The notes beneath the pieces are model-generated. The model worked only from the letters and a program-made list of their open reading frames with translations. It was not told where the DNA came from and did no database searches. From Pristiophorus japonicus (lineage: Eukaryota), in the NCBI RefSeq assembly GCF_044704955.1, contig NC_091996.1, positions 40,052,001 through 40,116,000 of the forward strand: 64,000 nucleotides of DNA, read 5' to 3'. The translations under genes were made by a program, and so were the position numbers. How positions within the stretch are numbered: the stretch's first letter is position 1; every line of letters begins with the position of its first letter. Positions 14,830 through 61,049 of this stretch are shown here, in pieces.

Positions 14830-17772
<2,943 letters not shown>

Positions 17773-19730: not shown

Positions 19731-19742
19731 TGCAATACATAC

Positions 19743-20440: not shown

Positions 20441-20644
<204 letters not shown>

Positions 20645-24142: not shown

Positions 24143-24213
24143 GCCATCTTCTGCACTGTAAAGGTCTCTGGCTCGATGCACTATTTGATGTACAAAGTGC
24201 TGACACAGCCTCA

Positions 24214-24393
<180 letters not shown>

Positions 24394-24607
24394 TCAAACA
24401 CAAAACAGACAGATCTCAAATCAAACTGAGCATCACCGAGGCCTGCACACTTTGCAGTGCAGCTACAGAGAGGGACACAATATCTACAACTAGCGCTTAT
24501 AGCACCCCTCAACACAGGAAATCTACCAGGGCAACTCGGGAGCGTAACAGGGGTGGTGGGTGCAGTAAGAAAAAATGATAAAAAAGGAGAGAGAGAAATG
24601 AACAAAC

Positions 24608-24937
24608 TCCAGGGGCAGTACTGAGGGAGTGCTGCACTGTCAGAGGGGCAATACTGAGGGAGCGCCGCACTGTCGGAGGGGCAGTACCGAGGGAGCGCCG
24701 CACTGTCGGAGGGGCAGTACTGAGGGAGTGCTGCACTGTCAGAGGGGCAGTACTGAGGGAGTGCTGCACTGTCAGAGGGGCAGTACTGAGGGAGCGCTGC
24801 ACTGTCAGAGGGGCAGTACTGAGGGAGTGCTGCACTGTCAGAGGTGCCCAACTTCAGATGTAACTTTAAGCCAAGGCCCAGTCTGCCCTCAGGGTGAGGG
24901 ATGGGTGGGGAAAAGATCCCACAGCCATGATTCAAAG
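24608..24937 (+). mobile_element. Partial Deu-type SINE core with 33-bp expansion
   Basis: ggggcagtactgagggagtgctgcactgtcaga repeats followed by SINE core sequence. Confidence 0.8.
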
Positions 24938-24939
24938 AG

Positions 24940-25127
24940 CAGGCTGGAGGTTAGAGAGATATTGAGGGGCGAGGCCATGGAGGGATTTGAACAAGGATGA
25001 AAAATTTAAAATGGAGGCGTTGCCGGACTGAGAACCAATGTCGGTCAGCGAGCACAGCGGGTGATGGGTGAGCGGGACTTGGTGCGAGTTAGAATGCGGG
25101 CAGAGTTTTGGATGAGCTCAAGTTTCA
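24940..25127 (-). mobile_element. L2-clade LINE ORF2 C-terminal fragment
   Basis: The minus strand translates to approximately KLELIQNSARILTRTKSRSPITRCAR, similar to the L2 motif LQLIQNSAAR...ITPVL..LHWLP. Confidence 0.7.
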
Positions 25128-25159
25128 GATGTTTTGGACCCATACCCAAATGAGTCGTG

Positions 25160-26256
25160 TCTGCGGAACCGGTACCCCAGTGAGAGTCAGTGTGTGTGGG
25201 ACCCGTACCCCAGTGAGAGTCAGTGTGTGTGGGACCCGTACCACAGTGAGAGTCAGTGTCTGTGGGACCTGTACCCCAGTGAGAGTCAGTGTGTGTGTGG
25301 GACCCGTACCCCAGTGAGAGTCAGTGTGTGTGGGACCCGTACCCCAGTGAGAGTCAGTGTGTGTGGGACCTGTACCCCAGTGAGAGTCAGTGTGTGTGGG
25401 ACCCGTACCCCAGTGAGAGTCAGTGTGTGTGGGACCCATTCCCCAGTGAGAGTCAGTGTGTGTGGAACCCATACCCCAGTGAGAGTCAGTGTGTGTGGGA
25501 CCTGTACCCCAGTGAGAGTCAGTGTGTGTGGGACCCATACCCCAGTGAGAGTCAGTGTCTGTGGGACCCATACTCCAGTGAGAGTCAGTTTGTGCGGGAC
25601 CCATTCCCCAGTGAGAGTCAGTGTGTGTGGAACCCATACCCCAGTGAGAGTCAGTGTCTGTGGAACCCATACACCAGTGAGAGTCAGTGTCTGTGGAACC
25701 CATACCCCAGTGAGAGTCAGTGTGTGTGGAACCCATACCCCAGTGAGAGTCAGTGTGTGTGGGACCCATACACCAGTGAGAGTCAGTGTGTGGGGGACTC
25801 GTACCCCAATGATTCAGTGTGCGTGGGACCCATACCCCAGTGAGAGTCAATGTGTGGGACCCATACCCCAGTGAGAGTCAGTGTGTGTGGGACCCGTATC
25901 CAGTGAGAGTCAGTGTGTGTGGGACTCGTATCCCAGTGAGAGTCAGTGTGTGTGGGACCCGTACCCCAGTGAGAGGGAACCGTACCCCAGTGAGAGTCAG
26001 TGTGTGTGGGACCCGTACCCCAGTGAGAGTCAGTGTGTGTGGGACCCGTACCCCAGTGAGAGTCAGTGTGTGTGGGACCTGTACCCCAGTGAGAGTCAGT
26101 GTGTGTGGGACCCATACCCCAGTGAGAGTCAGTGTGTGGGAAACCGGTACCCCAGTGAGAGTCAGTGTGTGTGGGATCTGTAACCCAGTGAGAGTCAGTG
26201 TGTGTGTAAACTGTACCCCAGTGAGAGTCAGTGTGTGTGGAACCCGTACCCCAGGG
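25160..26256. repeat. 33-bp minisatellite array (~33 copies)
   Basis: Same unit and orientation as 19005-19730. Confidence 0.97.
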
Positions 26257-26296
26257 GGACTGGTTCAATGCCCACCGGTTTGCAGTTCAATACTCA

Positions 26297-26431
<135 letters not shown>

Positions 26432-26469
26432 TCACAAACAGACGGAGCTCAACACAGTGCGGAGAATGG

Positions 26470-26963
26470 AAGCTGGGTATTTATACAGCGCCTTTCACAA
26501 CCTCAGGATAGCTCGAAGCACTTCACAGCCAATTAAAACATTATGAACTGTTGCCACTGTTGTAACATAGGAAACACGGCAGCCAATTTGGGCACAGCAA
26601 GCTCCCACAAACAACATTCCGAGAATAACCCAGATCATCTGTTTTAGTGATGTTGGTTGAGGGATGCATATTGGTCCCAGGACACGGGGGAGAACTCCCC
26701 TGCTCTTCTTCCAATAGTTCCGTGGGAGCTTTTACTTCCACCCGAGGGGGCAGACGGGGCCTCGGTTTAACGTCTCATCCAAGGACAGCACCTCCAACAG
26801 TGCGGCGCTACCTCAGTACTGCCCCTCCGACAGTGCGGCGCTCCCTCTGTACTGCACTGGGATTGTCATCCTGGATTATGGGATGAAGCCTCCAGAGTGG
26901 GACTTGAGTCCATGACCGTCTGACTCAGAGGTGAGAGTGCAACCCACTGAGCCATAGGTGACA
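26470..26963 (-). mobile_element. Full-length tRNA-derived Deu-type SINE
   Basis: Head TGGCTCAGTGG...GGCTCAAGTCC, core, and tail ...aaggcgctgtataaat. Confidence 0.88.
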
Positions 26964-27389
26964 CTAAAGGGAAAGAGAGGTGTGTAGGTAGCGGAGAGAG
27001 GGGTAGGTAGCGGAGAGACAGGGGACCGTGACCCCGAGCCCAGGGCAACACACTGCGGGGTTTGGGCTGCCCATCCAGCATCGTGACCACCTGCCCAGGG
27101 CATCACACCGTAGGACTACAGCTGCGCGAGAAGGCGCACACAATTGTTCATCGCTGCGAGGAGGATGGGGGGAGAAATCTGCAGACAAGTGTCTCGCTGT
27201 AACATCTCCAGGAGGAGCGGGGGAAGACACTTGCAGATGGGGAGCAGGTAAAATAAGTGAAATAAACCAGACATCTCGCCTCAATTATTCAGTCATTGAA
27301 TGAATTACCAGCCCGTCCATTGGTCAGTTCACCTGACTCAGCCACAGGGCACAGAGTGACGCCTGACTCCCGGCTGGCTACGGTTCCCT

Positions 27390-28297
<908 letters not shown>

Positions 28298-28689
28298 CTA
28301 TTTCAAAACAAAATTATGAGCATTTAAAAATCTCTGAAGTTTAAAAATAACAGGACCCACAATGCCAAGAGCACTAGGAAGCAGCCAGCTTTATCACCCT
28401 TCCAGAACTCTCATAACCAACGAGCTACACCCATTGTTTTGTGGACAAACTGCAGCCATATTGTGCATAGCAAGATCCCACAGACAGCAAATGAGAGAAA
28501 TAACCAGATCATCTGGTGGGGGAGGGATTGAACTAATTTGGCCTGGGGTGGGGGACCAGAATGAACCATCGGTGAGGAGAAGCATAATGCACAGAGGACA
28601 GGGAGAGACAAACAGCATTAGCATACAGAGTAGTTCAGAAATAGGAGGGATCAGACAGCAGGAAATGCATGGCAGGCTAGGATTGGGTT

Positions 28690-31630
28690 TGCAATGCATG
28701 AACGTAAATGCACGGTTGTGGTAAATAAGGTTGGTGAGCAGCAGGCACAAGTCACCACACGGGGTTATGATATAGTGGCAAAAACAGAGATTTGGCTCAA
28801 AGAAGGGGCTGATTGGGAACTTAATATTCCTGGCTACAAAGTATTCAGGAAAGATAGGGAAGGATAATTAGGAAAGGGGCTAGTGAGGTGGCACTATTGA
28901 TCAAAGGTACAGTTACAGAATTTATTTGGTTAGAATTAAGGAACAATGGAGGAGCTATTACTATAGGCCACCAATTAGTGGGAAGGAGTTGACGAGCAAA
29001 TTTGCAGCAAATTACAGAAAGGTGCAAGAACTTCAAAGTGGTGATAATGGGGGCGTTCAATGATCCGAATATAGACTGGGATAGTAACAGTGTAAAGTGC
29101 AGAGAGGGGGAGGAATTCCTGAAATATGATCAGTATGTTTCCGGCCCAACACGGAAGAAAGGGAACAGTGCTGGGTCTGGTTCTGGGGAATGAAGTGGGC
29201 CAAGTTTCATTGGGGGAGCATTTGGGGAACAGCGATCATAATATCATCAGGTTTAGAATAGTTCTGAAAAGGGAGATGGTACAATCAAGCATAAAAACTC
29301 TTAACTTCAAGAGGGCTAACTTCAGTGAGTTGAAAAGTGATGTGGTCCAGGTGGATTGGAATTAAAGATCGGTCGGTTAAACAGTAATTGAGCAATGGGA
29401 GGCCTTCATAGAGGAGGTTTGGGTACAGAGTGGACACGTTCCCATCAGGGGAAAAGGAAGGGCATCCAAAGCTAGAGCTCCCTGGATGACTAAAGACAGA
29501 GAGGGTAAAATGAGACAGTAAAAGGAGGCTTCTGACAAATGTCAGGTTCATAATACAGTAGAAAACCAAGATGAATATAGAAAGTACAGAGGAGATCTCA
29601 AAAAGGGAATACGAGGGACATAGATTAGCAGGAAACATAAAAGGGAACCCAAAAGTCATTTATAAACACACAAGGAGGCAGCAGCGATATTGGATAGGAT
29701 ATAATAAAGTGGAGGTACTTAGAAGGTTGGCAGCCCTCGAAATCGAAAAGTCACCCAGTCCAGATGGGATGCATCCTGGGTTACTGAGGGAAGTCAGGGT
29801 GGAAATTGCAGAGGCTCTGGCCACAATTTTTCAATCCTCCTTGGATATGGGGGGGGGGGGGGGCTGTCCCAGAGGACTGGAGAATTGCAAATGTTGCTCC
29901 CCTGTTCAAAAAAGGGGAGGGGGATAAACCTGGTAACGACAGGCCAGTCAGCCTCACGTTGGTGGTGGGGAAACTTTGAGAGACAATAATCTGAGACACA
30001 ATTAATTGGCATTTGTAAAAGTGTGGGCTGATAAATGAAAGCCAGCATGGATTTGTTGAAGGCAAATCGTGTCAGACTAACTTGTTTGAGTTCTTTGATG
30101 AAGTAATTACAGGGCTTGACAGGGTAGATGCAGGGAGGATGTTTCCCCTGGCTGGGGTGTCTAGAACCAGGGGTCAGGGTCTCAGGATCTCAGGATAAGG
30201 GGTCGGCCATGTAGGACTGAGATTAGGAGAAACTTCTTCACTCAGAGGGTGGTGAATCTTTGGAATTTTCTACCCGAGAGCGCTGTGGAGGCTCCGTCTT
30301 AGAGTATATTCAAGACAGAGATCGATAGATTTTTGGATATTAAGGGAATCAAGGGATATGGGGTTAGTGCAGGAAAGTGGAGTTGAGGTCGAAGATCAGC
30401 CATGATCTTATTGAATGGCGGAACAGGCTCGTGGGACCATATGGCTGACTCCTGCTCCTAATTCTTACGTTCTTATGTAATGGAGAGGGCTAGTAAGGAT
30501 AGTGCAGTTGATGTTGTGTATTTGGACTTTCAAAAGGCGTTTGATAAAGTACCACATGATAAACTGGTTAGCAAAATTGAAGTCTATGGGATTAAAGGGA
30601 CAATGGCAGTATGGATACAACATTGGCTGAGGGACAGAAAGCAGAGAGTAGTGGTGAACGGTTGGTTTTCAGACTGGAGGGAGAATACAGTGGTGTCCTC
30701 TAGGGGTCAGTGTTCGGACCACTGCTCTTGATATATATTAATGCCCTGGACTTGGGTATACAGGGCATAATTTCAAAGTTTGCAGATGACACAAAACTCA
30801 GAAATGTAGTAAGCAATGAGGAGGATAGTAACAGATTTCAAGACATGGACAGACTGGTGAAATGGGCAGACACATGGCAGACGACATTTATTGCAGAGAA
30901 GTGTGGCGATTCATTGTGGAAGGAAAAATGAGAGGGGCAATGTAAACTAAAGGGTATCATTTTAAAAAGGGCTGCAGGGAGACCTGGGGGCTCACATACA
31001 GAAATCTTTGAAGGTGGCGGGACAAGTTGAGAAAGCTGTTAAAAAGGCACATGGGATCCTTGGCTTTATTAATAGAGGCATAGAATACAAAAGCTAAATC
31101 TTTATAAAACACCAGTTGGGCCCCAGCTGGAGTATTGTGTCCAATTCTGGGCACCGCACTTTAGGAAGGATGTCAAGGTCTTGGAGAGGGTGCGGAGGAG
31201 ATTTACTGGAATGATACCAGGGATGAGGGACTGGAGAAGCTGGGTTTGTTCTCCTTAGAGCAGAGAAGGTTAAGGGAAGATTTAATAGAGGAGTTCAAAA
31301 TTATGAGGAGTTTTGATAGAGTAGAGACTACTTCCAGTGGCAGGAGGGTCGGTTACCAGAGGACACAGATTTAAGGTAATTGGTAAAAAAAAAGCCGTGG
31401 GAGAATTTTTTTAGGCAGCGAGTTGTTGTGATTGGGAACGCGCTGCCTGAAAGGGCGGTGGGAGCAGATTCAATAGTAACTTTCAAAAGGGATAAAGACT
31501 TAAAAAGGAAACATTTTCAGGGCTATGCGGAAAGCAATTTAATTGGTTGTTTTTTGGCCAAGGCACGATGGGCCGAATGACCTCCTTCTGTGCTGTAAGA
31601 TTCTATCATGTACGATTCTATTCTATGATC
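28690..31630 (+). mobile_element. Degenerate near-full ORF2 CR1 LINE with a nested CR1 3' fragment (30108-30476, TSD gtaat)
   Basis: [40 protein letters not shown] and KFADD motifs occur in order. Confidence 0.92.
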
Positions 31631-32120
31631 TGTTTTAGGATAAACGTTGGCCAGGACACCAGGGAGGACACTTCTTGCACTCGTGCCATGGGATCTTTTA
31701 CAGCCACCCGAGAGGGCAGACGGGGCCTCGGTTTAACCTCCCTCAGTACTGTAACCTGTCAGCACAGATGACATGTTGAAATCCTGGAGTAGGAATTGAA
31801 CATCACATCGTTCTGGACGAGAGGGCGATCAGCTGAGCCAAGCCAATACTGGCAGCAGCCCCAGTATGTAGAGCAGGACAGAGCCACAGGCGCTGGGGAT
31901 TTACGCTATATTCAAGGCCGTCCTTGCTGGACTCCACCTGTGGATTGGTGCTGGGGTTCAGGTTCAGGAGGTACGGGGTGACTAACTCAGACGCAGGTTC
32001 ACTGACCCATCGGGCTGGGAGGTTTGTTGCTGACCGTAACACTGTGACAGCGACAGATAAGGTGCATCACTATGGCTTTATTGATGGGAGTTATCTCAGT
32101 AACAGCCACCGGGCGGGCTA

Positions 32121-32261
<141 letters not shown>

Positions 32262-32985
32262 TCAGGCTCCAGACGGAGAAATCTCACTCCCACAGACCCA
32301 CACTGCCCTCAGTCCACCCTGTAGGAAAGCTCAGGGGAGCCAGTGCCCGCGATTCCCCCTCACAGAGTCGCAACGACTGCCCGGGTGCAGCGTGCTGCCA
32401 ACAGAGGCAAGGTGGCAACGCACCGAGGGTCAGCCAGTCTGCCTCCCGCTCGCCTCCGTACGGCTGCCTCTGGAACTGACGTGAAGCCCACTCCCTCCCT
32501 CCAGGGCTCAGCTGGCTACAGCCGATGATCAGCACCTCAAAGACCTGAGAGTCTCCGCTTCCAGCGTTGGATGGGCACAGCCATAAGGCGCTACAATTGG
32601 CCTCGGGGTGAGGGAGAGGGAGATACAAAATATAACCAGCGACGGCTCCAGCCCTGACCACACTCTGGTGACTCCTGTGGTAGTTGGGCCCAGTCAAGAA
32701 CCATCACGGCTCGGATGCCTCTTGCAGTCTGCTGACATTCACTATCTCGGCTCATGAAGTGCGGCTGAGGTATTGGAGAAAACACTCGACTCCAGCCAGT
32801 GTCACTGGATTCTGGAGCAAGCACCCCACCTGGCTGTACCCCGTCCTAACCCAGGGGCATGGCAGACAAACATCGCCAGCCTCACGCCAATGCAGCTCAG
32901 CCCTGCTCAGCCTCCGCACCCGGCAGGGCATTCAGCCACCCATCACTCGGACTGATTGTTGAAAATCAAACCCTATACTGAACCT

Positions 32986-33245
32986 TGTAATGTATTTGCT
33001 TCATGGGTTCTTTGCTTAAGAATTCATAGTAAAACATTGCTATTAAGAACTAGCTGGATAATTAACAAAGGTTTAACAATCACAGTACACATTAACAGTT
33101 CATCCACTAGGCTTACAACTGCATAACTCATCGTGGATGACCCAGACCCAACTGGCTGGGGTTTTATTGAGTCTTGTGAACATCACGTGACTGGCTAAGC
33201 CACTCACAATGCAACAATTCTACCAATCTGTGAGCATACATTACA
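32986..33245. mobile_element. Solo LTR (260 bp) in WDR5 intron 3
   Basis: 10-bp terminal inverted repeat TGTAATGTAT...ATACATTACA; degenerate 5-bp flanks aacct/gacgt. Confidence 0.7.
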
Positions 33246-33310
33246 GACGTTTTCGCATTATACAATCACAGACAGCAGTTATCGGGCGAAGCAATAATGG
33301 AAGGGGTTTA

Positions 33311-33451
<141 letters not shown>

Positions 33452-37302: not shown

Positions 37303-37380
37303 CTTGTTTTGATTGGAGGAAGAAGATGCTGATTGTGTTTTCGTGCACTCCGACTCGGATTTCTTGTCTTCAGTCGACAT
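37303..37380 (-). CDS. WDR5: WDR5 first coding exon (exon 2), MSTEDKKSESECTKTQSASSSSNQNK
   Basis: ATG at 37380 with A at -3 (gcaacgATG). The peptide resembles the WDR5 N-terminal tail (MATEEKK...). The exon starts at 37493 after the acceptor tttttacag and ends at AAG|GCGAGT, a GC donor in phase 0. Confidence 0.9.
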
Positions 37381-37789
37381 CGTTGCGAGGCCGTCAGAGT
37401 TCCGATGTTTCAATGGATGAGGGCAAGGCTCGTGCCCAAACACCAGCTAAATGCAACCCCCTTCCCCAGGAACAGCCGGAGTGGACAGTGTCTCTGTAAA
37501 AACTGGACAAAATGTAACAACGGTCAGTCAGAAACACAGCTCACAGCCACATGGACAGACGATGGAACATGGCAATCTCACAGAGCTGGAGGCTGTACTC
37601 ACTCAATGAATCCCTCAACAGACTGACTTGGGTTTCAGAGCTGCATAAAACAAGGTCTGTCCACATATGTCTCTGAAAAACTTCAACTTACAGCACAAAA
37701 CAAATCATAGATAACAGGCACAAATGGACTCGCCGGGTTGATCACCACTGTATGGAAAGGACACGGGTAGGAGAAGGGCGAAAAAGGGG

Positions 37790-47340: not shown

Positions 47341-48144
47341 GCTTCCTGTTCCTGATCACTATCCCGCAAGAAAGCTGGCGTGTGTGGATGTGGGGTACGG
47401 ATAGGGAGGTTGTAGTCTGCTGTGCTCATCGCCTCATCTGGTGCTTGAAGAATGGTGATACAGGCGAAGTATTGGGAGCCAGTGAGGATCCAAGCAGCAG
47501 CAAGAGTCTGCATCTTCAGGAGAGGAGAGAAATGGGGGGAAAAAACACAACTTAATCCGTCTGAAAACCTGCCCTCTCGCAAACCCATCTGGGGATGCTG
47601 AGCTGGCAGCTGCTGCTGTTCTGTGTTACAAACACTGAACACTTACAACTCCTGTGACAGCTCTGCCGTCTAACCTAGCCCCCATCTTGCACAGAAACAC
47701 CCACATTCCTGCCTGTAACACCAAACAGACCCGAATCCCAAATGAAACCACAAAGTTGCTCAGAGATGAAGGAATTATTTCAACGTGTTGGATAATTCTT
47801 ACAGTGGAGACCAAGAAACACCAAATTGGCAGATTCCAATACTGCCCCTCCCAACCTGTGCCTGGGTCCTTCCGAAACACCGCATTATATTCCCCAAACA
47901 TCCCTCCCCACCCACCCCCGCGCCCCAAATATGCCAACTCTCGTCTGGCTACACCTCCGCGGGCGCTGGGCAGCCTCCGGGGCCCCAACATTCTCAGTCA
48001 CTACAAGCGGGTTATTTAACCGGGGGGGGGGGGGGGGGGGGGGAGCAGCACAGCCCAATCGTGCCCCAAATAATGGCAGCACCAGAGGGGCCCCCAGAGC
48101 CGGAGTGGGGTCAGAAGCCCAGAATGGTCCCCAACTCCCCAAAC

Positions 48145-48670
48145 CCCCACCCAACCAACCCTTCCCCCTCAACACCCCAAACCCACAACCAACCAACCCT
48201 TCCCCCTCAACACCCCAAACCCACAACCAATCAACCCTTCCCCCTCAACACCCCAAACCCACAACCAACCAACCCTTCCCCCTCAACACCCCAAACCCAC
48301 AACCAAACAACCCTTCCCCCTCAACACCCCAAACCCACAACCAACCAACCCTTCCCCCTCAACACCCCAAACCCACAACCAACCAACCCTTCCCCCTCAA
48401 CACCCCAAACCCACAACCAATCAACCCTTCCCCCTCAACACCCCAAACCCACAACCAACCAACCCTTCCCCCTCAACACCCCAAACCCACAACCAAACAA
48501 CCCTTCCCCCTCAACACCCCAAACCCACAACCAACCAACCCTTCCCCCTCAACACCCCAAACCCACAACCAACCAACCCTTCCCCCTCAACACCCCAAAC
48601 CCACAACCAACCAACCCTTCCCCCTCAACACCCCAAACCCACAACCAACCAACCCCTCCCCCCCCAAACC
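48145..48670. repeat. 38-bp C/A-rich minisatellite (caccccaaacccacaaccaaccaacccttccccctcaa), ~13 copies
   Basis: Period 38 (48211, 48249, ...). Confidence 0.97.
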
Positions 48671-48769: not shown

Positions 48770-49110
48770 CCAATTCCACCCCCAGCGCGCGGTGTGCCGG
48801 GCCGGGAGGGATCCCGGGGGTGCTGAGCTGGAAGCCGCCCGGCGACTCCGGTGAGCAGTAGACCCGAGCCCGGGGGCCGGGCACTGGATCGCGGCACAGG
48901 CCCCGCGGCCTCCCTCACCCCGGGCCGCCGCCGCCGCGCTCACCTGGTGCTGGGCCTGTATCCCCGGCCTCTCGCTTCCCGGGCCCCGCTCTCGGGCCTC
49001 TTTCTCCCCGCGCGGTTGCTGTGGCGGGAGCGCCGAGCCGCCAAACCCGGGCCCGGCAAGCGACAAGGAGCCGACAGGGCCAAGAGCAGCCCCGCGGCCG
49101 GACTCCCAGC
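48770..49110 (-). promoter_or_regulatory. CpG island / putative WDR5 promoter and first-exon region
   Basis: Very high GC and CpG density (e.g. gccgccgccgccgcgc) in unique sequence lying between two satellites. Confidence 0.65.
48944..49090 (-). other. WDR5: Probable non-coding exon 1 of WDR5 (5' end approximate)
   Basis: Strong donor CAG|GTGAGC at 48944/48943 inside a non-repetitive CpG-dense segment, 11.4 kb upstream of exon 2. The TSS cannot be determined from sequence alone. Confidence 0.65.
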
Positions 49111-52100
49111 ACAGCGCCCCCTCGCAACACAGCGCACGCTCCCGGGCCCTCCCGCTCCCGGCACAGCGCCCCCTCCCGGCACAGTGGGCCCTCTCGACAT
49201 AGCGCCCCTCCCGGGCCCTCCTGATGCAGCGCCTCCGCCCCCCCCCCCCACCGCCGACACAACGCCCCCTCCCGGGACCTCCCAGCACAGCGCCCCCTCC
49301 CGCAACCTCGCGGCACAGCGAACCTCCCGTGCCCTCCCGGCACAGCACCCTCTCCCGGCATAGCGCCCTCTCCCGGGCTCTCCCGGCACAACGCCCCCAT
49401 CCCAGGCCCTCCCGGCACAGCGTCCCCCCACGACACAGCGCCCCCTCTCGGGCCCTCCCGGCACAGCGCCCCCTCCCGGCACAGTGGGCCCTCTCGACAC
49501 AGCGCCCCCTCCCGGCACAGTGAGCCCTCCTGGCACAGCGCCCCTCCCGGGCCCTCCCGGTACTGCGCCCCCTCCCGGGCCCTCCCGCAACAGCGCCCCC
49601 TCCCGGGCCTTCCGGGCACAGCGCCTACTCCCGGCACAGCGCGCCTCCCGGGCCCCCCCTCCCTCGACACTGCGCCCCCTCCCAGCACAGCGCTCCCTCC
49701 CGGGACCTCCCGGCACAGCGACCCCTTCCCGGGCCCTCCCGGCACAGCGTCCCCTTCCCGGGCCCTCCCGGCACAGCGCCCCTTCCCGGGACCTCCCGGC
49801 ACAGCGACCTTTCCAGCACAGTGCCCCCTCCCGGCCCTCCCGGCACAGCGTCCCCTTCCCGGGCCCTCCCGGCACAGCGTCCCCTTCCCGGGCCATCCCG
49901 GCACAGCGGCCCCTCCCGGCACAGTGCCCCCTCCTGGGCCCTCCCGGCACAGCGTCCCCTCCCGGGACCTCCCGGCACAGCGACCCTCCCAGCACAGTGC
50001 CCCGTCCCGGGCCCTCCCGGCACAGCGTCCCCTTCCCGGGCCGTCCCAGCACAGCGGCCCTTCCCTGACCCTCCCGGCACAGTGCCCCCTCCTGGGCCCT
50101 CCCGGCACAGCGTCCCCCTCTTGTCACAGCCCCCCTTCCGGGCCCTCCTGGCACAGCACCCCCTCCCGGCACAGCGCCCCTTCCCGGGCCGTTCCAGCAC
50201 AGCACCCCCTCCCAGCACAGCGCCCCCTCCCGGGCCCTCCCGGCACAGCGTCCCCTTCCCGGGTCCTACCGGCACAGCGCCCCCTCCCAGGCCCTCCTGG
50301 CACACGCCCTCTCCCGAGCCCTCCTGGCACAGCGCCCCCTCCTGGGCCTCCCGGCACAGCGGTCCCTCCCGGCACAGCGCCCCCTCCTGGCACAGCGTCC
50401 CCTCCCAGGCCCTCCTGGCACATCGCCCCTCCCGGCACAGAGCCCCCTCCCTGGCCCTCCCGGCACAGAGCCCACTCCCTGGCCCTCCCGGCACAGCGCC
50501 CCTTCCTGGTACAGTGCCCCCTCCCGGCACAGCGGCCCCTCCCGGACCCTCCTGGCACAGCGCAACCTCCTGGCCCAGCGCCCCATCCCGGGCCCTCCTG
50601 GCATGGCACCCCTCCCGGCACAGCGCCCTTTCCTGGGCCTTCCTGGCACAGCGCCTCCTCCCAGCACAGCGCCCCTTCCCGGGCCCTCCTGGCACAGCGT
50701 CCCCTTCTGGCACAGCGCTCCCTCCCGGACCCTCCCGGCACAGCGTCCCTCCCAGACCCTCCCGGCACAGCGCTCATTCCCGGACCCTCTCGGCACAGCG
50801 TCCCCTTCCCGGGCCCTCCCGGCACAGCGTCCCCTTCCCAGGCCCTCCTCGCACAGCGCCCCCCCCAGACCCTCCCGGCACAGCACCCCCTCGTGGGCCC
50901 TCCCGGCACAGCACCCATTCTCGGCACAGCGCAATCTCCCGGCCCTTCTGGCACAGCGCCCCCTCCCGGCACAGAACCTCCTCCCGGCACAGCGTCCCCT
51001 CCAGGCGCTCCTGACACAGCGCCCCCTCCCGGCACAGCGGCCCTCCAGACACAGCGCCCCCTCCCGGCACAGCGCACCTTCCCGGGCCCTCCATGCACAG
51101 CGCCCCTCGCAGGCCTCCTGGCACAGCGCCCCCTCCCGGCCCTCCCGGCACAGCGTCCCCTTCCCGGGCCATCCCGGCACAGCGGCCCCTCCCGGGACCT
51201 CCCGGCACAGCGACCCTCCCAGCACAGTGCCCCGTCCCGGGCCCTCCCGGCACAGCGTCCCCTTCCTGGGCCGTCCCGGCACAGCGGCCCCTCCCTGACC
51301 CTCCCGGCACAGTGCCCCCTCCTGGGCCCTCCCGGCACAGCGTCCCCCTCTTGTCACAGCCCCCCTTCCGGGCCCTCCTGGCACAGCACCCCCTCCCGGC
51401 ACAGCGCCCCTTCCCGGGCTGTTCCAGCACAGCACCCCCTCCCGGCACAGCGCCCCCTCCCGGGCCCTCCCGGCACAGCGTCCCCTTCCCGGGTCCTACC
51501 GGCACAGCGCCCCCTCCCAGGCCCTCCTGGCACACGCCCTGTCCCGAGCCCTCCTGGCACAGCGCCCTCTCCTGGGCCTCCCGGCACAGCGGTCCCTCCC
51601 GGCACAGCGCCCCCTCCTGGCACAGCGTCCCCTCCCAGGCCCTCCTGGCACATCGCCCCTCCCGGCACAGAGCCCCCTCCCTGGCCCTCCCGGCACAGAG
51701 CCCACTCCCTGGCCCTCCCGGCACAGCGCCCCTTCCTGGTACAGTGCCCCCTCCTGGCACAGCGGCCCCTCCTGGACCCTCCTGGCACAGCGCAACCTCC
51801 TGGCCCAGCGCCCCATCCCGGGCCCTCCTGGCATGGCAACCCTCCCGGCACAGCGCCCTTTCCTGGGCCCTCCTGGCACAGCGCCTCCTCCCAGCACAGC
51901 GCCCCTTACAAGGCCCTCCTGGCACAGCGTCCCCTCCTGGCACAGCGCTCCCTCCCGGACCCTCCCGGCACAGCATCCCTCCCAGACCCTCCCGGCACAG
52001 CGCTCATTCCCGGACCCTCTCGGCACAGCGTCCCCTTCCCGGGCCCTCCCGGCACAGCGTCCCCTTCCCAGGCCCTCCTGGCAAAGCGCCCCCCCAGACC

Positions 52101-55100
52101 CTCCCGGCACAGCACCCCCTCGTGGGCCCTCCCGGCACAGCGCCCACTCTCGGCACAGCGCAATCTCCCAGCCCTTCTGGCACAGCGCCCCCTCCCGGCA
52201 CAGAACCTCCTCCCGGCACAGCGTCCCCTCCCGGCGCTCCTGACACAGCGCCCCCTCCCGGCACAGCGGCCATCCAGACACAGCGCCCCCTCCCGGCACA
52301 GCGCCCCTTCCCGGGCCCTCCATGCACAGCGCCCCCTCCTGGCACAGCGCCCCTCACAGGCCTCCTGGCACAGCGCTCCGTCCCGGGCCTTCCCGGCAGA
52401 GCGTCCACTTCCCGGGCCCTCCCGGCATAGCGCCCCCTCCCGGGCCCTCTCGACACAGCCCCCCATCCCGAGCCCTCCCAGCACAGCGCCCCTCCCAGGA
52501 CCTCCCAGCACAGCGGCCCTTCCCGGGTCCTCCCAGCACAGTGCCCCCTCCCGCAACCTCGAGGCACAGCGACCCTCCCGTGCCCTCCCGGCACAGCTCC
52601 CTCTCCCGGCATAACGCCCTCTCCCGGGCCCTTCCGGCACAGCGCCCCCCTCCCAGGCCCTCCCGGCACAGCGCCCCTCCCGGGCCCTCCCGGAACAGCG
52701 TCCCCCCGCCACACAGCGCCCCCTCTCGGGCCCTCCCGGCACAGCGCCCCCTCGCGACACAGCGCCCCCTCCCGGGCCCTCCCGGCACAGCGCCGCCTTC
52801 CGGGCCTTCCGGGCACAGCGCCCCCTCCCGGCACAGCGCGCCTCCCGGGCCCCCCCTCCCCCGACTCTGCGCCCCCTCCCAGCACAGCGCTCCCTCCCGG
52901 GCCCTCCCAGCACAGCGCCCCCTCCCGGCACAGCGACCCTTCCAGCACAGTGCCCCCTCCCGGCCCTCCCGGCACACCGTCCCCTTCCCGGGCCCTCCCG
53001 GCACAGCGTCCCCTTCCCGGGCCATCCCGGCACAGCGCCAACTCCCTGACCCTCCCGCCACAGTGCCCCCTCCTGGGCCCTCCCGGCACAGCATCCCCCA
53101 CCCGGCACAGCGCCCCTCCCGGCCCTCCTGACACAGCGCCCACTCCCAGGCACTCCCGGCCCACGCCCTCTCCCGAGCCCTACTGGCACAGCGTCCCCTC
53201 CTGGGCCCTCCCGGCACAGCGGTCCCTCCCGGCACAGTACCTCCTCCCGGCACATCGCCCCCTCCCAGCCATCCTGGCACAGCGCCCCCTCCCGGCACCG
53301 CACCTCCTCCTGGCACAGCGTCCCCTCCCAGGCCCTCCTGGCACAGCGCCCCTCCCGGGCCCTCCCGGCACAGAGCCCCCTCCCTGGCCCTCCCGGCACA
53401 GCGCCCGCTCCCGTACCCTCCCGGCACACTGTCCCCTCCCTCCCGGGTCCTCCCATCACAGTGTCAGTTCCCTCCCAGCACAGCGCCCCTCCCAGCACAG
53501 AGCCCCCTCCCTGGCCCTCCCGGCACAGAGCCCATTCCCTGGCCCTCCCGGCACAGCGCCCCTTCCTGGTACAGTGCCCCCTCCCGGCACAGCAGCCCGT
53601 CCCGGACCCTCCTGGCACACCGCAACCTCCTGGCCCAGCGCCCCATCCCGGGCCCTCCTGGCATGGCACCCCTCCCGGCACAGCGCCCTTTCCTGGGCCC
53701 TCCTGGCACAGCGCCTCCTCCCAGCACAGCGCCCCTTCCCGGGCCCTCCTGGCACAGCGTCCCCTCCTGGCACAGCGCTCCCTCCCGGACCCTCCCGGCA
53801 CAGCGTCCCTCCCAGACCCTCCCGGCACAGCGCTCATTCCCGGACCCTCTCGGCACAGCGTCCCCTTCCCGGGCCCTCCCGGCACAGCATCCCCTTCCCA
53901 GGCCCTCCCGGCACAGCGCCCCCCCCCGACCCTCCCGGCACAGCACCCCCTCGTGGGCCCTCCCGGCACAGCGCCCACTCTCGGCTCAGCGCAACCTCCC
54001 GGCCCTTCTGGCACAGCGCCCCCTCCCGGCACAGAACCTCCTCCCGGCACAGCGTCCCCTCCCGGCGCTCCTGACACAGCGCCCCCTCCCGGCACAGCGG
54101 CCCTCCAGACACAGCGCCCCCTCCCGGCACAGCGCCCCTTCCCGGGCCCTCCATGCACAGCGCCCCCTCCCGGCACAGCGCCCCTCGCAGGCCTCCTGGC
54201 ACAGCGCTCCGTCCCAGGCCTTCCCGGCAGAGCGTCCACTTCCCGGGCCCTCCCGGCATAGCGCCCCCTCCCGGGCCCTCTCGACACAGCCCCCCATCCC
54301 GAGCCCTCCCGGCACAGCGCCCCTCCCAGGACCTCTCAGCACAGCGCCCCTTCCCGGGTCCTCCCAGCACAGTGCCCCCTCCCGCAACCTCGAGGCACAG
54401 CGACCCTCCCGTGCCCTCCCGGCACAGCACCCTCTCCCGGCATAGCGCCCTCTCCCGGGCCCTTCCGGCACAGCGCCCCCCTCCCAGGCCCTCCCGGCAC
54501 AGCGCCCCTCCCGGGCCCTCCCGGAACAGCGTCCCCCCGCCACACAGCGCCCCCTCTCGGGCCCTCCCGGCACAGCGCCCCCTCGTGACACAGCGCCCCC
54601 TCCCGGGCCCTCCCGGCACAGCGCGCCTCCCGGGCCCCCCCTCCCCCGACTCTGCGCCCCCTCCCAGCACAGCGCTCCCTCCCGGGCCCTCCCAGCACAG
54701 CGCCCCCTCCCGGCACAGCGACCCTTCCAGCACAGTGCCCCCTCCCGGCCCTCCCGGCACACCGTCCCCTTCCCGGGCCCTCCCGGCACAGCGTACTCTT
54801 CCCGGGCCCTCCCGGCACAGCGTCCCCTTCCCGGGCCATCCCGGCACAGCGCCCACTCCCTGACCCTCCCGCCACAGTGCCCCCTCCTGAGCCCTCCCGG
54901 CACAGCATCCCCCACCCAGCACAGCGCCCCTCCCGGCCCTCCTGACACAGCGCCCACTCCCAGGCACTCCCGGCCCACGCCCTCTCCCGAGCCCTACTGG
55001 CACAGCGTCCCCTCCTGGGCCCTCCCGGCACAGCGGTCCCTCCCGGCACAGCACCTCCTCCCGGCACATCGCCCCCTCCCAGCCCTCCTGGCACAGCGCC

Positions 55101-58100
55101 CCCTCCCGGCACCGCACCTCCTCCTGGCACAGCGTCCCCTCCCAGGCCCTCCTGGCACAGCGCCCCTCCCGGGCCCTCCCGGCACAGAGCCACCTCCCTG
55201 GCCCTCCCGGCACAGAGCCCACTCCCTGGCCCTCCCGGCACAGCGTCCCTTCCTGGTACAGCGCCCCCTCCCGGCACAGCGGCCCCTCCCGGACCCTCCT
55301 GGCACAGTGCGACCTCCTGGCCCAGCGCCCCAATCTTGGGCCCTCCTGGCACAGCGCCCCTTCCCGGGCCCTCCTGGCACAGCGCCGCCTCCCGGCACAG
55401 CGCCTCCTCCCGGGCTCTCCTGGCATGGCACCCCTCCCGGCACAGCGCCCCTTCGCGGGCCCTCCTGGCACAGCACCCCCTCCCAGCACAGCGCCACTTC
55501 CCAGGCCCTCCTGGCACAGCATCCCCTCCCGGCACAGCGTCCCCTTCCCTGACCCTCCCGGCACAGCGCCCCCTCGTGGGCCCTCCCGGCACAGCGCCCC
55601 CTCTCGGCACAGCGCAACCTCCCGGCCCTCCTGGCACAGCGCCCCCTCCCGGCTCAGAATCTCCTCCCAGCACAGCGCCCCCTCCCGGCGCTCCTGACAC
55701 AGCGTCCCCTCCCGGCACAGCGGCCCTCCTGACACAGCACCCCCTCCCGGCACAGCGCCCCCTCCCAGGCTCACCCGGCACAGCGCCCCTCGCAGGCCTC
55801 CTGGCACAGCGCCCCTTCCCGGGCCCTCCTGGCACAGCACCCCCTCCCAGCACAGCGCCCCTTCCCAGGCCCTCCTGGCACAGCGTCCCCTCTTGGCACA
55901 GCGTCCCCTTCCCTGACCCTCCCGGAACTGCGCCCCCTCCTGGGCCCTCCCGGCACAGTGGCCCCTCCCAGCACAGCGGCCCCCCCCCTGCCCTCCTGGC
56001 ACAGCGCCCCCCTCCCGACACAGCACCTCCTCCCGGCACAGCGCCCCCTCCCAGCCCTCCTGGCACAGCGCCTCCTCCTGGCACAGCGCCCTCTCCCGGG
56101 CCCTCCTGGCACAGCGCCCCCTCCCGGGCCCTCCCGGCACAGAGCCCCCACACGGGCCCTCCCGGCACAGCACCCCTTCCTGGTACAGCGCACCCTCCCA
56201 GCACAGCGCCGCTTCCCGGGCACCCCTGGCACAGCGCCTGCTCCCGGACCCTCCTGGCATAGCACCCCTCCCAGCACAGCGCCCCTTCCCGGGCCCTCCA
56301 GGCACAGCGCCCCCTCCCAGCACAGCGACTCCTCCCAGGCCCTCCAGGCATAGCGCCCGCTCCCGGGCCCTCCCGGCACAGCGCCCGCTCCCGGACCCTC
56401 CCGGCACAGCACCCCCTCCCGGACCCTCCCAGCACAGCGCTCGTTCCCGGACCCTACCGGCACAGTGCCACCTCCCGGACACTCCCGGCACAGCATCCCC
56501 TCCCTCGCAGCACAGCGCCCCCTCCCAGCACAGCGTTAGTTCCTTCCCGGCACAGCACCCCCTCCCGGCACAACGCCCCCTCACGGGCCCTCCTGGCACG
56601 GTGCCCCCTCCTGGCACAGCGCCACCTCCCGGGCCCTCCTGGCACAGCGCCCCCTCCCGGGTCCTCCCAGCTCAATGCCCTCCCGGGCCCTCCCGGCACA
56701 GCGCCCCCTCCCGGCACAGCTCCCCCTGCGGACCCTCCCGGTACAGCGCCCCCTCCCGGACTCTCCCGGCACAGCGCCCGCTCCCGTACCCTCCCGGCAC
56801 ACCGTCCCCTCCCTCCCGGCACAGCGCCCCCTCCCGGGTCCTCCCATCACAGTGTCAGTTCCCTCCCAGCACAGCGCCCCTCCCGGCACAGCGCCCCCTC
56901 CCGGGCCCTCTCGGCACAGCGCCCCCTCCCGGCACAGCGTCCCCTCCCTCCCGGCACAAAAACCGCTCCCGGCACAGCGCCCCCTCCCGGACCCTCCCGG
57001 CACAGCGCCCCCCTCCCAGGCCCTCTCGGCACAGCACCCCCTCCCGGCACAGCGGCCCCTCCCGGACCCTCTTGGCACAGCGCGACCTCCTGGCCCAGCG
57101 CCCCATCCTGGGCCCTCCTGGCACAGCGCCCCTTCCCGGGCCCTCCTGGCACAGCGCTGCCTCCCGGCACAGCGCCTCCTCCCGGGCTCTCCTGGCATGG
57201 CACCCCTCCCGGCACAGCGCCCCTTCCCGGGCCCTCCTGGCACAGCACCCCCTCCCAGCACAGCGTCCCTTTCCCTGACCCTCCCGGCACAGCGCCCCCT
57301 CGTGGGCCCTCCCGGCACAGCGCCCCCTCTCGGCACAGCGCAACCTCCCGGCCCTCCTGGCACAGCGCCCCCTCCCGGCACAGAATCTCCTCCCAGCACA
57401 GCGCCCCCTCCCGGCGCTCCTGACACAGCGTCCCCTCCCGGCACAGCGGCCCTCCTGACACAGCGCCCCCTCCCGGCACAGCGCCCCCTCCCAGGCTCAC
57501 CCGGCACAGCGCCCCTCGCAGGCCTCCTGGCACAGCGCCCCTTCCCGAGCCCTCCTGGCACAGCACCCCCTCCCAGCACAGCGCCCCTTCCCAGGCCCTC
57601 CTGGCACAGCGTCCCCTCCTGGCACAGCGTCCCCTTCCCTGACCCTCCCGGAACTGCACCCCCTCCTGGGCCCTCCCGGCACAGTGGCCCCTCCCAGCAC
57701 AGCGGACCCCCCGGCCCTCCTGGCACAGCGCCCCCCTCCCGACACAGCACCTCCTCCCGGCACAGCGCCCCCTCCCAGCCCGCCTGGCACAGCGCCTCCT
57801 CCTGGCACAGCGCCCTCTCCCGGGCCCTCCTGGCACAGCGCCCCCTCCCGGGCCCTCCCGGCACAGAGCCCCCACACGGGCCCTCCTGGCACAGCACCCC
57901 TTCCTGGTACAGCGCACCCTCCCAGCACAGCGCCCCTTCCCGGGCACCCCTGGCACAGCGCCCCCTCCTGGCACAGCGCCTGCTCCCGGACCCTCCTGGC
58001 ATAGCGCCCCTCCCAGCACAGCGCCCCCTCCCGGGCCCTCCTGGCACAGCGCCCCCTCCCAGCACAGCGACTCCTCCCAGGCCCTCCAGGCATAGCGCCC

Positions 58101-60690
58101 TCTCCCGGGCCCTCCCAGCACAGCGTCACGTCCCGGGCCCTCCTGGCACAGCAGCTCCTCCCGGGTCCTCCCAGCTCAATGCCCTCCCGGGCCCTCCCGG
58201 CGCAGCGCCCACTCCCAGCACAGCGCCCCCTCCCGGCACAGCGCCCCCTCCGGACCCTCCCGGTACAGCGCTCCCTCCCGGACCCTCCCGGCACAGCGCC
58301 CGCTCCCGTACCCTCCCGGCACACCGTCCCCTCCCTCCCGGCACAGCGCCCCCTCCCGGGTCCTCCCATCACAGTGTCAGTTCCCTCCCAGCACAGCGCC
58401 CCTCCCGGCACAGCGCCCCCTCCGGACCCTCCCGGTACAGCACCCCCTCCCGGACTCTCCCGGCACAGCGCCCGCTCCCGTACCCTCCCAGCACACCGTC
58501 CCCTCCCTCCCGGCACAGCGCCCCCTCCCGGGTCCTCCCATCACAGTGTCAGTTCCCTCCCAGCACAGCGCCCCTCCCGGCACAGCGCCCCTCCCGGCAC
58601 AGCGCCCCCTCCCGGGCCCTCTCGGCACAGCGCCCCCTCCCGGCACAGCGTCCCCTCCCTCCCGGCACAAAAACCGCTCCCGGCACAGCGCCCCCTCCCT
58701 GACCCTCCCGGCACAGCGCCCCCCTCCCAGGCCCTCTCGGCACAGCACCCCCTCCCGGCACAGCGCCCCCTCCCGGCACAGCGTCCCCTCCCTCCCAGCA
58801 CAGCGCCCCCTCCGGGCACAGCGCCCCCTCCCAGCACAGCGCCCCCTCCTGGGCTCTCCCGCCACACCGTCCCCTCCCGGCGCTCCTGACACAGCGCCCC
58901 CTCCCGGCACAGCGGCCCTCCAGACACAGCGCCCCCTCCCGGCACAGCGCCCCCTCCCGGCACAGCGCCCCTCGCAGGCCTCCTGGCACAGCGCTCCGTC
59001 CCGGGCCTTCCCGGCAGAGCGTCCACTTCCCGGGCCCTCCCGGCATAGCGCCCCCTCCCGGGCCCTCTCGACACAGCCCCCCATCCCGAGCCCTCCCGGC
59101 ACAACGCCCCTCCCAGGACCTCCCAGCACAGCGCCCCTTCCCGGGTCCTCCCAGCACAGTGCCCCCTCCCGCAACCTCGAGGCACAGCGACCCTCCCGTG
59201 CCCTCCCGGCACAGCACCCTCTCCCGGCATAGCGTCCTCTACCGGGCCCTTCCGGCACAGCGCCCCCCTCCCAGGCACTCCTGGCACAGCGCCCCCTCCC
59301 GGGTCCTCCCAGCTCAATGCCCTCCAGGGCCCTCCCGGCACAGCGCCCCCTCCCGGCACAGCGCCCCCTCCGGACCCTCCCGGTACAGCGCCCCCTCCCG
59401 GACCCTCCCGGCACAGCGCCCGCTCCCGTACCCTCCCGGCACACCGTCCCCTCCCTCCCGGCACAGCGCCCCCTCCCGGGTCCTCCCATCACAGTGTCAG
59501 TTCCCTCCCAGCACAGCGCCCCTCCCGGCACAGCGCCCCTCCCGGCACAGCGCCCCCTCCCGGGCCCTCTTGGCACAGCGCCCCCTCCCGGCACAGCGTC
59601 CCCTCCCTCCCGGCACAAAAACCGCTCCCGGCACAGCGCCCCCTCCCGGACCCTCCCGGCACAGCGCCCCCCTCTCAGGCCCTCTCGGCACAGCACCCCC
59701 TCCCGGCACAGCGCCCCCTCCCGGCACAGCGTCCCCTCCCTCCCGGCACAGCGCCCCTCCCGGCACAGCGCCCCCTCCCAGCACAGCGTCCCCTCCCGGG
59801 CTCTCCCGGCACACCGTCCCCTCCCTCCCGGCACAGCGCCCCCTCCCGGACCCTCCCGGCACAGCATCCCCTCCCTCGCAGCACACGCCCCCTCCCAGCA
59901 CAGCGTTAGTTCCTTACCGGCACAGTGCCCCCTCCCGGCACAACGACCATTCCCGGACCCTCCTGGCACGGCACCCCCTCCCGGCACAGCGCCACCTCCC
60001 GGGCCCTCCTGGCACAGCGCCCCCTCCCGGGTCCTCCCAGCTCAATGCCCTCCAGGGCCCTCCCGGCACAGCGCCCCCTCCCGGCACAGCGCCCCCTCCG
60101 GACCCTCCCGGTACAGCGCCCCCTCCCGGACCCTCCCGGCACAGCGCCCGCTCCCGTACCCTCCCGGCACACCGTCCCCTCCCTCCCGGCACAGCGCCCC
60201 CTCCCGGGTCCTCCCATCACAGTGTCAGTTCCCTCCCAGCACAGCGCCCCTCCCGGCACAGCGCCCCCTCCAGGTCCCTCTCGGCACAGCGCCCCCTCCC
60301 GGCACAGCGTCCCCTCCCTCCCGGCACAAAAACCCCTCCCGGCACAGCACCCCCTCCCGGACCCTCCCAGCACAGCGCCCCCCTCCCAGGCCCTCTCGGC
60401 ACAGCACCCCCTCCCGGCACAGCGCCCCCTCCCGGCACAGCGTCCCATCCCTCCCGGCACAGCACCCCCTCCCGGCACAGCGCCCCCTCCCAGCACAGCG
60501 CCCCCTCCCGGGTTCTCCCGGCACACCGTCCCCTCCCTCCCGGCACAACGCCCCCTCCCGGGTCCTCCCATCACAGTATCAGTTCCCTCCCAGCACAGCG
60601 CCCCTCCCGGCACAGCGCCCCCTCCCGGGCTCTCCCGGCACTGCGCCCCCTCCCGGGTCCTCCCGGCACGGCACCCCCAGCAGCGGCTCC
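49100..60690. repeat. 11.6-kb GC-rich satellite built from cccggcacagcgccccct and cccgggccct units, with higher-order duplications
   Basis: Directly visible; rare variants recur at kb spacings (ttgtcacagc at 50121/51351; ccatgcacag at 51091/52320/54151). Confidence 0.97.
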
Positions 60691-61049
60691 CAGTGATGGT
60701 GGCTGGAGCAGGAACGCACTGTCTGAGTGGAAACAGATTCAATAATCACCTTCAAAAGAGAATTGAAAGAAGACTTGCATTTCTATCGCGCCTTTTATGA
60801 CCACCGGACGTCTCAAAGTGCTTTACAGCCAGTGAAGTACTTTCGGAGTAAAACAGAAAAAGCTGTAAATCTCAGGCAGCATCTGAGCTCGGACCAGTGC
60901 AGCTATCAATAGATTGGTGGGGTCCCTGTACACAGGTCACTAAATGTAGGGGTCAGCTACAGAAAATAATCAGAAAGGCGAATGGAATGTTTAGCCTCTC
61001 TAATTGGAGGGCAAGAATATAATGGGGAGGCTTTACTGCAACAATACAA

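What the first reader, a model, noticed from the sequence alone, without database searches (positions are those of the whole stretch)
49100..60690. 11.6-kb satellite of near-consensus, co-oriented CTCF motifs directly abutting the WDR5 5' end
Seen: the dominant monomer reads GTGCC(A/G)GGAGGGGGCGCTG on the minus strand. By eye it is repeated hundreds of times in one orientation, starting right at the CpG island/exon 1. Established: the vertebrate CTCF core consensus is about TGGCCACCAGGGGGCGCTA (CC[A/G][C/G][C/T]AG[G/A][G/T]GGC[G/A]). The monomer deviates mainly at the one core position normally C/T (here G). CTCF binding is orientation-dependent for loop-extrusion barriers and CpG-methylation-sensitive. 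Inference: the array could be a massive, methylation-tunable insulator or loop anchor pointing toward the WDR5 gene body, next to an essential housekeeping promoter in TE-dense chromatin. I do not know of a description of such a satellite-encoded CTCF array at this locus.
Basis: partly seen in the sequence, partly recalled or inferred. Interest (0 to 1): 0.8.

Follow-up and report, generated by a model that had tools for sequence, protein, structure and literature searches.

The report
Amplified promoter CTCF-like site beside WDR5
A short promoter sequence resembling a binding site for the genome-folding protein CTCF has been copied about 450 times in a row just before the WDR5 gene, and the same has happened, apparently independently, at many other genes of this genome; it looks more like runaway repeat growth than a purpose-built insulator, though binding is untested.

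Summary
The array is real: about 447 mixed 18/28-bp units, all one way round, starting about 50-65 bp before WDR5 exon 1 (splice to the ATG exon seen in a contig from another sample). The CTCF likeness beats shuffles (recalled matrix: 118 minus-strand hits at p<1e-5, 0 plus), but only 38 copies are the quoted monomer and none has the usual C/T at core position 5. It is not unique. I found 19 promoter-abutting arrays with different monomers around a CTCF core (Aph-1, WDR20, SRP72, SEH1 and others; one about 186 kb), 17 pointing into the gene, as single promoter CTCF sites do in mouse. Yet 9 of 33 promoters picked without the motif also carry upstream arrays, none with a sense CTCF unit. In the WDR5 array CpGs decay 2-3 times faster than other C/G, and key motif bases are not preferentially kept. 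Best reading: a promoter CTCF site caught in general promoter-flank minisatellite growth, largely methylated. A selected insulator is possible but unshown. The scan earlier noted a similar 11-copy array upstream of XPA in another genome.

The parts
49096..60690 (-). Tandem array of about 447 mixed 18-bp and 28-bp units, each with a CTCF-like core read on the minus (gene-sense) strand
49164..49182 (-). Most promoter-proximal strong CTCF-like copy (16.4 bits, recalled matrix), 117 bp before the 5' end of the transcript contig
48944..49047 (-). WDR5 non-coding exon 1 (5' end at least 49047; donor at 48944/48943)
   Evidence: contig of run X5 lies here and its loose end matches 37478-37496
48132..48662 (-). 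38-bp minisatellite (14 copies, 97% matches) at the start of intron 1, G-rich on the sense strand, without the CTCF core
37303..37502 (-). WDR5 exon 2 with the start codon at 37380
10418..33451 (-). Remaining WDR5 coding exons (frames at 33311-33451, 32121, 28145, 26297, 24214, 20441, 19614, 14363, 10418; exact borders not mapped)
   Evidence: exon at 33311-33451 matches WDR5 chains in the PDB, E 4.5e-26
60765..60850 (.). Dispersed-repeat fragment just beyond the far end of the array (also at 23224, 36055, 41215); interspersed repeats follow
   Evidence: SINE identity is recalled, not tested

Best explanation
The seed was an ordinary promoter-proximal CTCF-type site lying just upstream of the WDR5 start in the direction of transcription. 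It was caught in the tandem amplification that often hits the DNA flanking CpG-island first exons in this genome: a small duplication gave the 18-bp unit, a variant gave the 28-bp unit, and unequal exchange or conversion then copied blocks of 0.2-3 kb. Most of the array has been methylated in the germline for part of its history and drifts without selection on the motif; at most the proximal, unmethylated copies would serve as the promoter site. Shown: array anatomy, motif likeness, position, recurrence at other genes, CpG decay, no preferential motif conservation. Inferred: the single-site ancestor, the amplification mechanism, present methylation and occupancy.
For: 19 promoter-abutting CTCF-core arrays with different monomers, 17 in sense orientation (p=7e-4; 10 of 12 among those found by pattern alone, p=0.04), matching the ~60 bp upstream, 90% direct orientation of mouse promoter sites (bioRxiv 10.1101/095802, passages). 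Motif positions 1-8, not part of the search, are CTCF-like in the 11 pattern-only promoter arrays scored: C at 5 in 9, C/T at 8 in 10, partial score >=0 in 6 against about 10% expected. In 33 promoters picked by other motifs, 9 have an upstream array and 9 an array after exon 1; none of the 9 upstream units has a sense CTCF site. CpG transitions 1.9-3.1 times non-CpG. High-information positions vary more than the 3' flank. Motif strength does not follow array size: the ~186-kb array and the NOL11-like array score about 1-2 bits.
Against: Upstream arrays were not significantly commoner at promoters than at the mostly transposon-borne control loci (9 of 33 vs 14 of 81, p=0.30; only the downstream excess, 9 vs 4, was significant). 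3 of 5 promoter-located strong CTCF sites were in arrays against about 3 of 33 promoters with an array reaching that close (p=0.02), more than purely passive capture predicts, though arrays get more chances to match. In 12 of 16 arrays high-information positions changed less than other motif positions (p=0.08; biased by anchoring). CpG observed/expected stays 0.46-0.84 along the array, so decay is only moderate. No orthologous single-copy promoter could be examined.
Confidence: 0.55

Rival explanations
1. Selected, methylation-tunable insulator or loop anchor: many co-oriented CTCF sites stop cohesin coming from the gene side and shield a housekeeping promoter from transposon-rich chromatin.
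For: 118 same-strand hits at p<1e-5, evenly spread at 7-13 per kb; CpG at the methyl-sensitive core position; recurrence and polarity at 17 of 19 promoters; precedent in Dxz4, whose sites share polarity and give orientation-dependent stripes (PMC6985041, passages); interspersed repeats begin 80 bp past the far end.
Against: All 79 matches to the strict pattern carry the disfavoured G at position 8; CpG decay and no preferential motif conservation in this array; most sampled promoters lack such an array; array sizes run from 3 copies to about 186 kb with no link to motif quality.
Confidence: 0.2
2. CTCF-bound sites are themselves hot seeds of tandem duplication (stalled cohesin, topoisomerase or replication breaks beside an open promoter), so the arrays are a mutational footprint of CTCF binding rather than a selected device.
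For: Tandem-core pattern 229 vs 17 control matches, 386 vs 12 at longer spacing, 73 vs 0 for strong sites; 3 of 5 promoter sites in arrays; in a dispersed element the 47-bp segment holding its CTCF site is amplified 4-12 times in the 5 copies read.
Against: Single CTCF motifs are already about 115-fold over control, so tandem excess is expected; only 2 of 80 sampled strong sites sat inside a tandem repeat; none of 33 sampled copies of the dispersed element had its CTCF segment amplified and one had another segment amplified; arrays with CCAAT, YY1 and ETS words also occur.
Confidence: 0.17
3. A G-quadruplex-prone GC-rich minisatellite whose CTCF likeness is incidental.
For: 92 quadruplex-type motifs on minus, 0 on plus; the G-run is the most variable non-CpG part.
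Against: Only 0.05% of 20,000 base shuffles and 0.02% of 5,000 dinucleotide shuffles of the 18-mer reach its score; unsearched motif positions are CTCF-like in sister arrays; unselected upstream arrays are G-rich on the sense strand in only 5 of 9.
Confidence: 0.08

Closest known systems
DXPas34 minisatellite at mouse Tsix (PMC3149622, passages)
   Same: CpG-rich short-monomer array near a promoter, each monomer with a CTCF site; motif and CpG content vary between species.
   Different: One locus tied to X inactivation with published binding; here at least 19 housekeeping-type promoters with unrelated monomers, upstream of the start, up to about 186 kb, binding untested.
DXZ4 / FIRRE / ICCE tandem repeats (PMC6985041, passages; PMC3287207, search listing)
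   Same: Arrays of CTCF sites with common polarity; occupancy goes with hypomethylation.
   Different: Those have long units (3 kb for DXZ4), demonstrated occupancy and Hi-C effects; this has 18/28-bp units, a sub-optimal motif and signs of methylation.
Promoter-proximal CTCF sites in direct orientation (bioRxiv 10.1101/095802, passages)
   Same: Just upstream of the start, about 90% in the direction of transcription (here 17 of 19).
   Different: [quoted passage not shown]
Recombination-linked minisatellite expansions in frogs (PMC10794172, passages)
   Same: Short segments repeatedly expanded into satellites, attributed to unequal crossing over.
   Different: Those are subtelomeric and partly transposon-derived; this unit shows no significant likeness to the local SINE-linked 33-mer and the locus is at 40 Mb of a 100-Mb contig.

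Membership tests
CTCF-bound tandem-repeat insulators (DXPas34/DXZ4 type) | CTCF motif in the monomer | tested here: met
   16.4 bits, p 1.4e-6 for the modal 19-mer; 118 of about 447 units at p<1e-5 (recalled matrix); position 8 is the disfavoured G
CTCF-bound tandem-repeat insulators (DXPas34/DXZ4 type) | Common polarity of the sites | tested here: met
   214 minus vs 0 plus at p<1e-4
CTCF-bound tandem-repeat insulators (DXPas34/DXZ4 type) | CTCF/cohesin occupancy in vivo | not testable with these tools
   No ChIP-type run listed
CTCF-bound tandem-repeat insulators (DXPas34/DXZ4 type) | Hypomethylated where bound | tested here: inconclusive
   CpG transitions 1.9-3.1 times non-CpG point to germline methylation; somatic state unknown
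CTCF-bound tandem-repeat insulators (DXPas34/DXZ4 type) | Motif conserved more than the rest of the unit | tested here: not met
   14.2% vs 4.6% change; 11.6% vs 5.5% in the 3' flank, but 16.3% at other motif positions by a second method; cross-species conservation not testable
CTCF-bound tandem-repeat insulators (DXPas34/DXZ4 type) | Boundary or stripe in Hi-C | not testable with these tools
   No contact data available
Promoter-proximal direct-orientation CTCF site | Motif in the direction of transcription, shortly upstream of the start | tested here: met
   Sense orientation; array starts about 50-65 bp and first strong copy 117 bp before the transcript contig's 5' end; the true start site is not mapped
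Transposon-derived minisatellite | Unit matches part of a dispersed element and sits inside its body | tested here: not met
   Likeness to the window's 33-bp minisatellite reached by 12% of 2,000 shuffles; proximal flank is exon 1; only this one element was compared
G-quadruplex minisatellite | Dense four-run G motifs on one strand | tested here: met
   92 vs 0; formation not testable

The most novel reading that the evidence does not exclude
In this lineage (apparently cartilaginous fishes) promoter CTCF sites are repeatedly and independently expanded into polarised arrays of 3 to thousands of copies, because CTCF sites seed duplication or because selection keeps them as length-variable, methylation-gated barriers that protect housekeeping promoters in a 5.9-Gb repeat-rich genome. 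The arrays would be a natural dosage series for how the number and strength of co-oriented sites set loop-extrusion barriers.
Probability: 0.3. Interest if true: 0.8.

Novelty: new variant of a known kind. Interest (0 to 1): 0.52.

Why it matters
CTCF-bearing tandem repeats are known from a handful of mammalian loci. Here a whole set of promoters carries them, each built from its own sequence, almost all pointing into the gene, across a range from 3 copies to about 186 kb and from poor to perfect motifs. Even if neutral, this shows how promoter motifs get amplified in large repeat-rich genomes, and it gives a ready comparison for asking whether site number, motif quality or methylation decides barrier strength. 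Such arrays are collapsed in short-read assemblies and dropped by unique-mapping ChIP pipelines (general knowledge), so they would have been easy to miss.

Tried and rejected
Origin from the SINE-linked 33-bp minisatellite: not significant (12% of shuffles). A YY1 13-mer as promoter sample: 27 of 30 loci were not promoters, mostly repeats. PRDM9 SSXRD search in the genome: no match, but no control genome rang, so uninformative; PMC5519329 (passages) leaves the status in cartilaginous fishes unsettled, so promoter-directed recombination stays a guess. No RNA holder listed for the exon-1 stretch; X5 is of unknown kind and is used only for the splice it bridges; X6 and X7 laid nothing, which proves nothing. 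A first gapless conservation table was confounded by C-run indels and redone; the two methods disagree on high- vs low-information positions. The count matrix was not found in print. Five similarity hits lack the core or a promoter context (L008, L010, L054, L056, L057) and were dropped; 4 arrays were left out of the orientation count as ambiguous (L003, L049, L053, L124) and others as non-promoter or transposon-borne (L016, L020, L125, L128, L129, L133, L134, L135, L211, the C15, C22:53.5 Mb and C32 arrays). Rfam found only two tRNA-type hits in four flanking loci. Earlier-findings look-ups by place, sequence and one word set gave nothing.

Full report
Observation. The window lies at C20:40,052,001-40,116,000 of a 5.92-Gb genome; its repeats look to me like those of a shark (recalled, not tested). 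From about 49096 to 60690 the plus strand is a C-rich tandem array, GC about 0.76. It holds 447 gapless units, spaced mostly 18 bp (133) or 28 bp (150); the 28-mer is the 18-mer plus ten bases. Blocks recur at offsets of 1230, 1831, 3060 and 728 bp, so growth involved multi-unit copying.

The gene. WD-repeat exons run on the minus strand from 33451 to 10418; the first matches WDR5 chains in the PDB (E 4.5e-26), and the start codon is at 37380. A 1447-letter contig from run X5 (another sample and study, kind not on record) lies on 48944-49047 and its loose end matches 37478-37496, with a proper donor and acceptor. So exon 1 is non-coding and its 5' end is at least 49047, about 50-65 bp from the array. 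A contig from the source sample spans 48670-49184, across the junction; that is not independent support.

The motif. With a count matrix recalled as JASPAR MA0139.1 (not found in print; column sums consistent) the modal 19-mer scores 16.4 of 27.5 bits (p 1.4e-6). The minus strand has 214, 118 and 19 hits at p<1e-4, 1e-5 and 1e-6, the plus strand none; 100 dinucleotide shuffles give means of 17.7, 2.0 and 0.25 on minus. Because an array multiplies one chance event, I also shuffled the unit: 0.05% of 20,000 base shuffles and 0.02% of 5,000 dinucleotide shuffles reach the score. The likeness is real but second-rate. A strict pattern with position 8 left free has 1497 matches in the genome against 13 for its control; among the first 100, position 8 is C/T in 87, G in 8 and A in 5, and G at both 6 and 8 occurs twice (counted by eye); several of the G cases belong to one repeat family. 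All 79 matches inside the array have G at 8. The monomer has CpGs at core positions 2 and 12; binding is methylation-sensitive at 2 and not at 12 (PMC10484683, passages; PMC10325916, abstract).

The class. A similarity search with 201 bases of the array and pattern searches for two cores in tandem (229 matches vs 17 control; 37 vs 13; 386 vs 12; 73 vs 0 for strong sites) led to other arrays; lists stop at 100 rows, so contigs after C11 are poorly covered. Reading flanks gave 19 arrays, this one included, that abut a CpG-rich first exon. Neighbours identified by tools: Aph-1 (Pfam E 3.7e-13), a ThiF-domain gene, NOL11 (Pfam E 0.021, below cut-off), SRP72, WDR20 and SEH1. UBA2, PAXBP1 and SELENOI are recalled names; the others are unnamed and their direction was judged by eye from CpG, start codons and donors. 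Units are 18-47 bp and, apart from a few found by likeness to this one, share little outside the core. Sizes run from 3 copies to an array on C11 that starts at about 96,291.5 kb and is still present at 96,478 kb (about 186 kb if continuous; ends and parts sampled). In 17 of 19 the motif reads in the gene's direction (p 7e-4; 10 of 12 for pattern-only finds, p 0.04). In mouse, promoter CTCF sites of early down-regulated genes lie about 60 bp upstream and 90% are in direct orientation (bioRxiv 10.1101/095802, passages). Motif positions 1-8 were not searched for, yet in 11 pattern-only promoter arrays position 5 is C in 9, position 8 is C/T in 10, and the partial score is at least 0 in 6, against about 10% by chance. 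The seeds therefore look like true CTCF sites.

The background. To see whether CTCF is special I sampled promoters by other motifs: 30 of 1059 YY1-word hits, 37 of 37 ETS+YY1 hits and 49 of 214 ETS-CRE hits. Of 116 loci I classed 33 as promoters by eye, 81 as not, and dropped one duplicate and one satellite. Nine of 33 have an array ending within 500 bp upstream and 9 have one after exon 1; the non-promoter loci have 14 and 4 of 81 (p 0.30 and 0.002; many of the 14 are internal repeats of transposons). None of the 9 upstream units holds a sense CTCF site; one holds a weak antisense one. They are G-rich on the sense strand in 5 of 9, so strand skew alone does not explain 17 of 19. WDR5 itself has a non-CTCF 38-bp array at the start of intron 1. 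Arrays with CCAAT, YY1 and ETS words also exist. Conversely, of 80 strong sites fetched from the first 100 rows, 33 lie in one dispersed element, 2 lie inside a tandem repeat, and 3 of the 16 read in full are at promoters, one of them in an array. Adding the SEH1 and SRP72 arrays from the same list, 3 of 5 promoter sites are in arrays, against about 3 of 33 promoters with an array reaching that close (p 0.02). The numbers are small and arrays have several chances to match, so this is a hint only.

Selection and methylation. In units of exact length, CpG transitions are 3.0-3.1 times (18-mers) and 1.9-2.0 times (28-mers) those at other C/G, while transversions are similar: the array has been methylated in the germline at least in part. 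CpG transitions exceed others in 12 of the 15 arrays with a CpG in the modal unit; the NOL11-like and one 20-bp array are exceptions and one shows no change. Over 144 distinct units, high-information positions changed in 14.2%, other motif positions in 7.8% and positions outside the motif in 4.6%. A second method gave 11.6%, 16.3% and 5.5%, the middle figure raised by the difference between the two unit types. Neither shows the motif kept better than its flank. Across 16 arrays the second method favoured high-information positions in 12 (p 0.08), with a bias from anchoring on the core. The largest array and the NOL11-like array score about 1-2 bits, while the two antisense arrays score 18-21.

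Reading. Most likely (0.55) a sense-oriented promoter CTCF site was swept into the tandem growth that often affects promoter flanks here, and the array now drifts, mostly methylated. A selected insulator (0.2), CTCF sites as mutational seeds (0.17) and an incidental G-quadruplex repeat (0.08; 92 vs 0 motifs) remain. Which process drives the growth is not shown; unequal exchange is the explanation offered for frog satellites (PMC10794172, passages).

Comparison with what is known. DXPas34 (PMC3149622, passages) and DXZ4/FIRRE/ICCE (PMC6985041, passages) are CTCF-bearing tandem repeats with shared polarity. This array meets the motif and polarity criteria, fails within-array conservation, and cannot be tested for occupancy or contacts, so I say it resembles them, not that it is one. 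Seven searches (listings and abstract starts only) showed no description of such a promoter class in sharks or fishes. The library lacks most subscription papers, including shark genome papers with CTCF ChIP-seq that I recall, and I read no supplements. The scan noted an 11-copy CTCF-motif minisatellite upstream of XPA in a chimaera-like genome (e1-7791257); I did not check it, but it agrees in kind and pointed me to DXPas34.

Verdict. A real feature and a new variant of a known kind. The single-locus insulator claim is unsupported so far; the recurrence at many promoters is the more interesting result. Interest 0.52.

Noticed in passing
G000:C11 about 96,291,500-96,478,000 (L118-L121, L051): Satellite of about 186 kb (28-bp units, weak CTCF-like core) starting directly upstream of a gene start (PAXBP1-like, recalled name); same geometry as WDR5.
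   Followed up: partly
L280, L289, L295, L300, L303; 33 of L196-L275: A roughly 600-bp CpG-rich dispersed element with short inverted ends carries one strong CTCF motif and accounts for 33 of 80 sampled strong sites; in copies on C15 (1.9-4.5 Mb), C5, C6 and C22 its 47-bp CTCF segment is tandemly amplified 3-12 times.
   Followed up: partly
G000:C32 4.69-5.92 Mb (L306, L307): Macro-repeat with a period of about 105-120 kb, each of 12 units holding a 33-bp array of near-perfect CTCF motifs interrupted by interspersed repeats; what the unit encodes is unknown.
   Followed up: partly
L124, L125, L128, L129: A family of 20-bp arrays with strong CTCF-like motifs (up to 74 hits at p<1e-5 in 4 kb) near contig ends, mostly not at promoters.
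   Followed up: partly
G000:C8 150.47-151.16 Mb (L188): Large satellite region containing an ETS-type promoter word many times.
   Followed up: no
L089, L090, L103, L107, L113, L114, L165, L169, L195; window 48132-48662: Minisatellites often begin shortly after exon 1 (9 of 33 sampled promoters vs 4 of 81 other loci).
   Followed up: partly
window 11626-11853, 24611-24844, 36738-37148, 41543-42214: A 33-bp minisatellite recurs in WDR5 introns, at 41543 beside the body of a dispersed repeat; tandem repeats cover 21% of the gene body.
   Followed up: partly
L115 and L116 (C18:7.91 and 8.15 Mb): Near-identical duplicate promoter and first exon 236 kb apart in opposite orientation.
   Followed up: no
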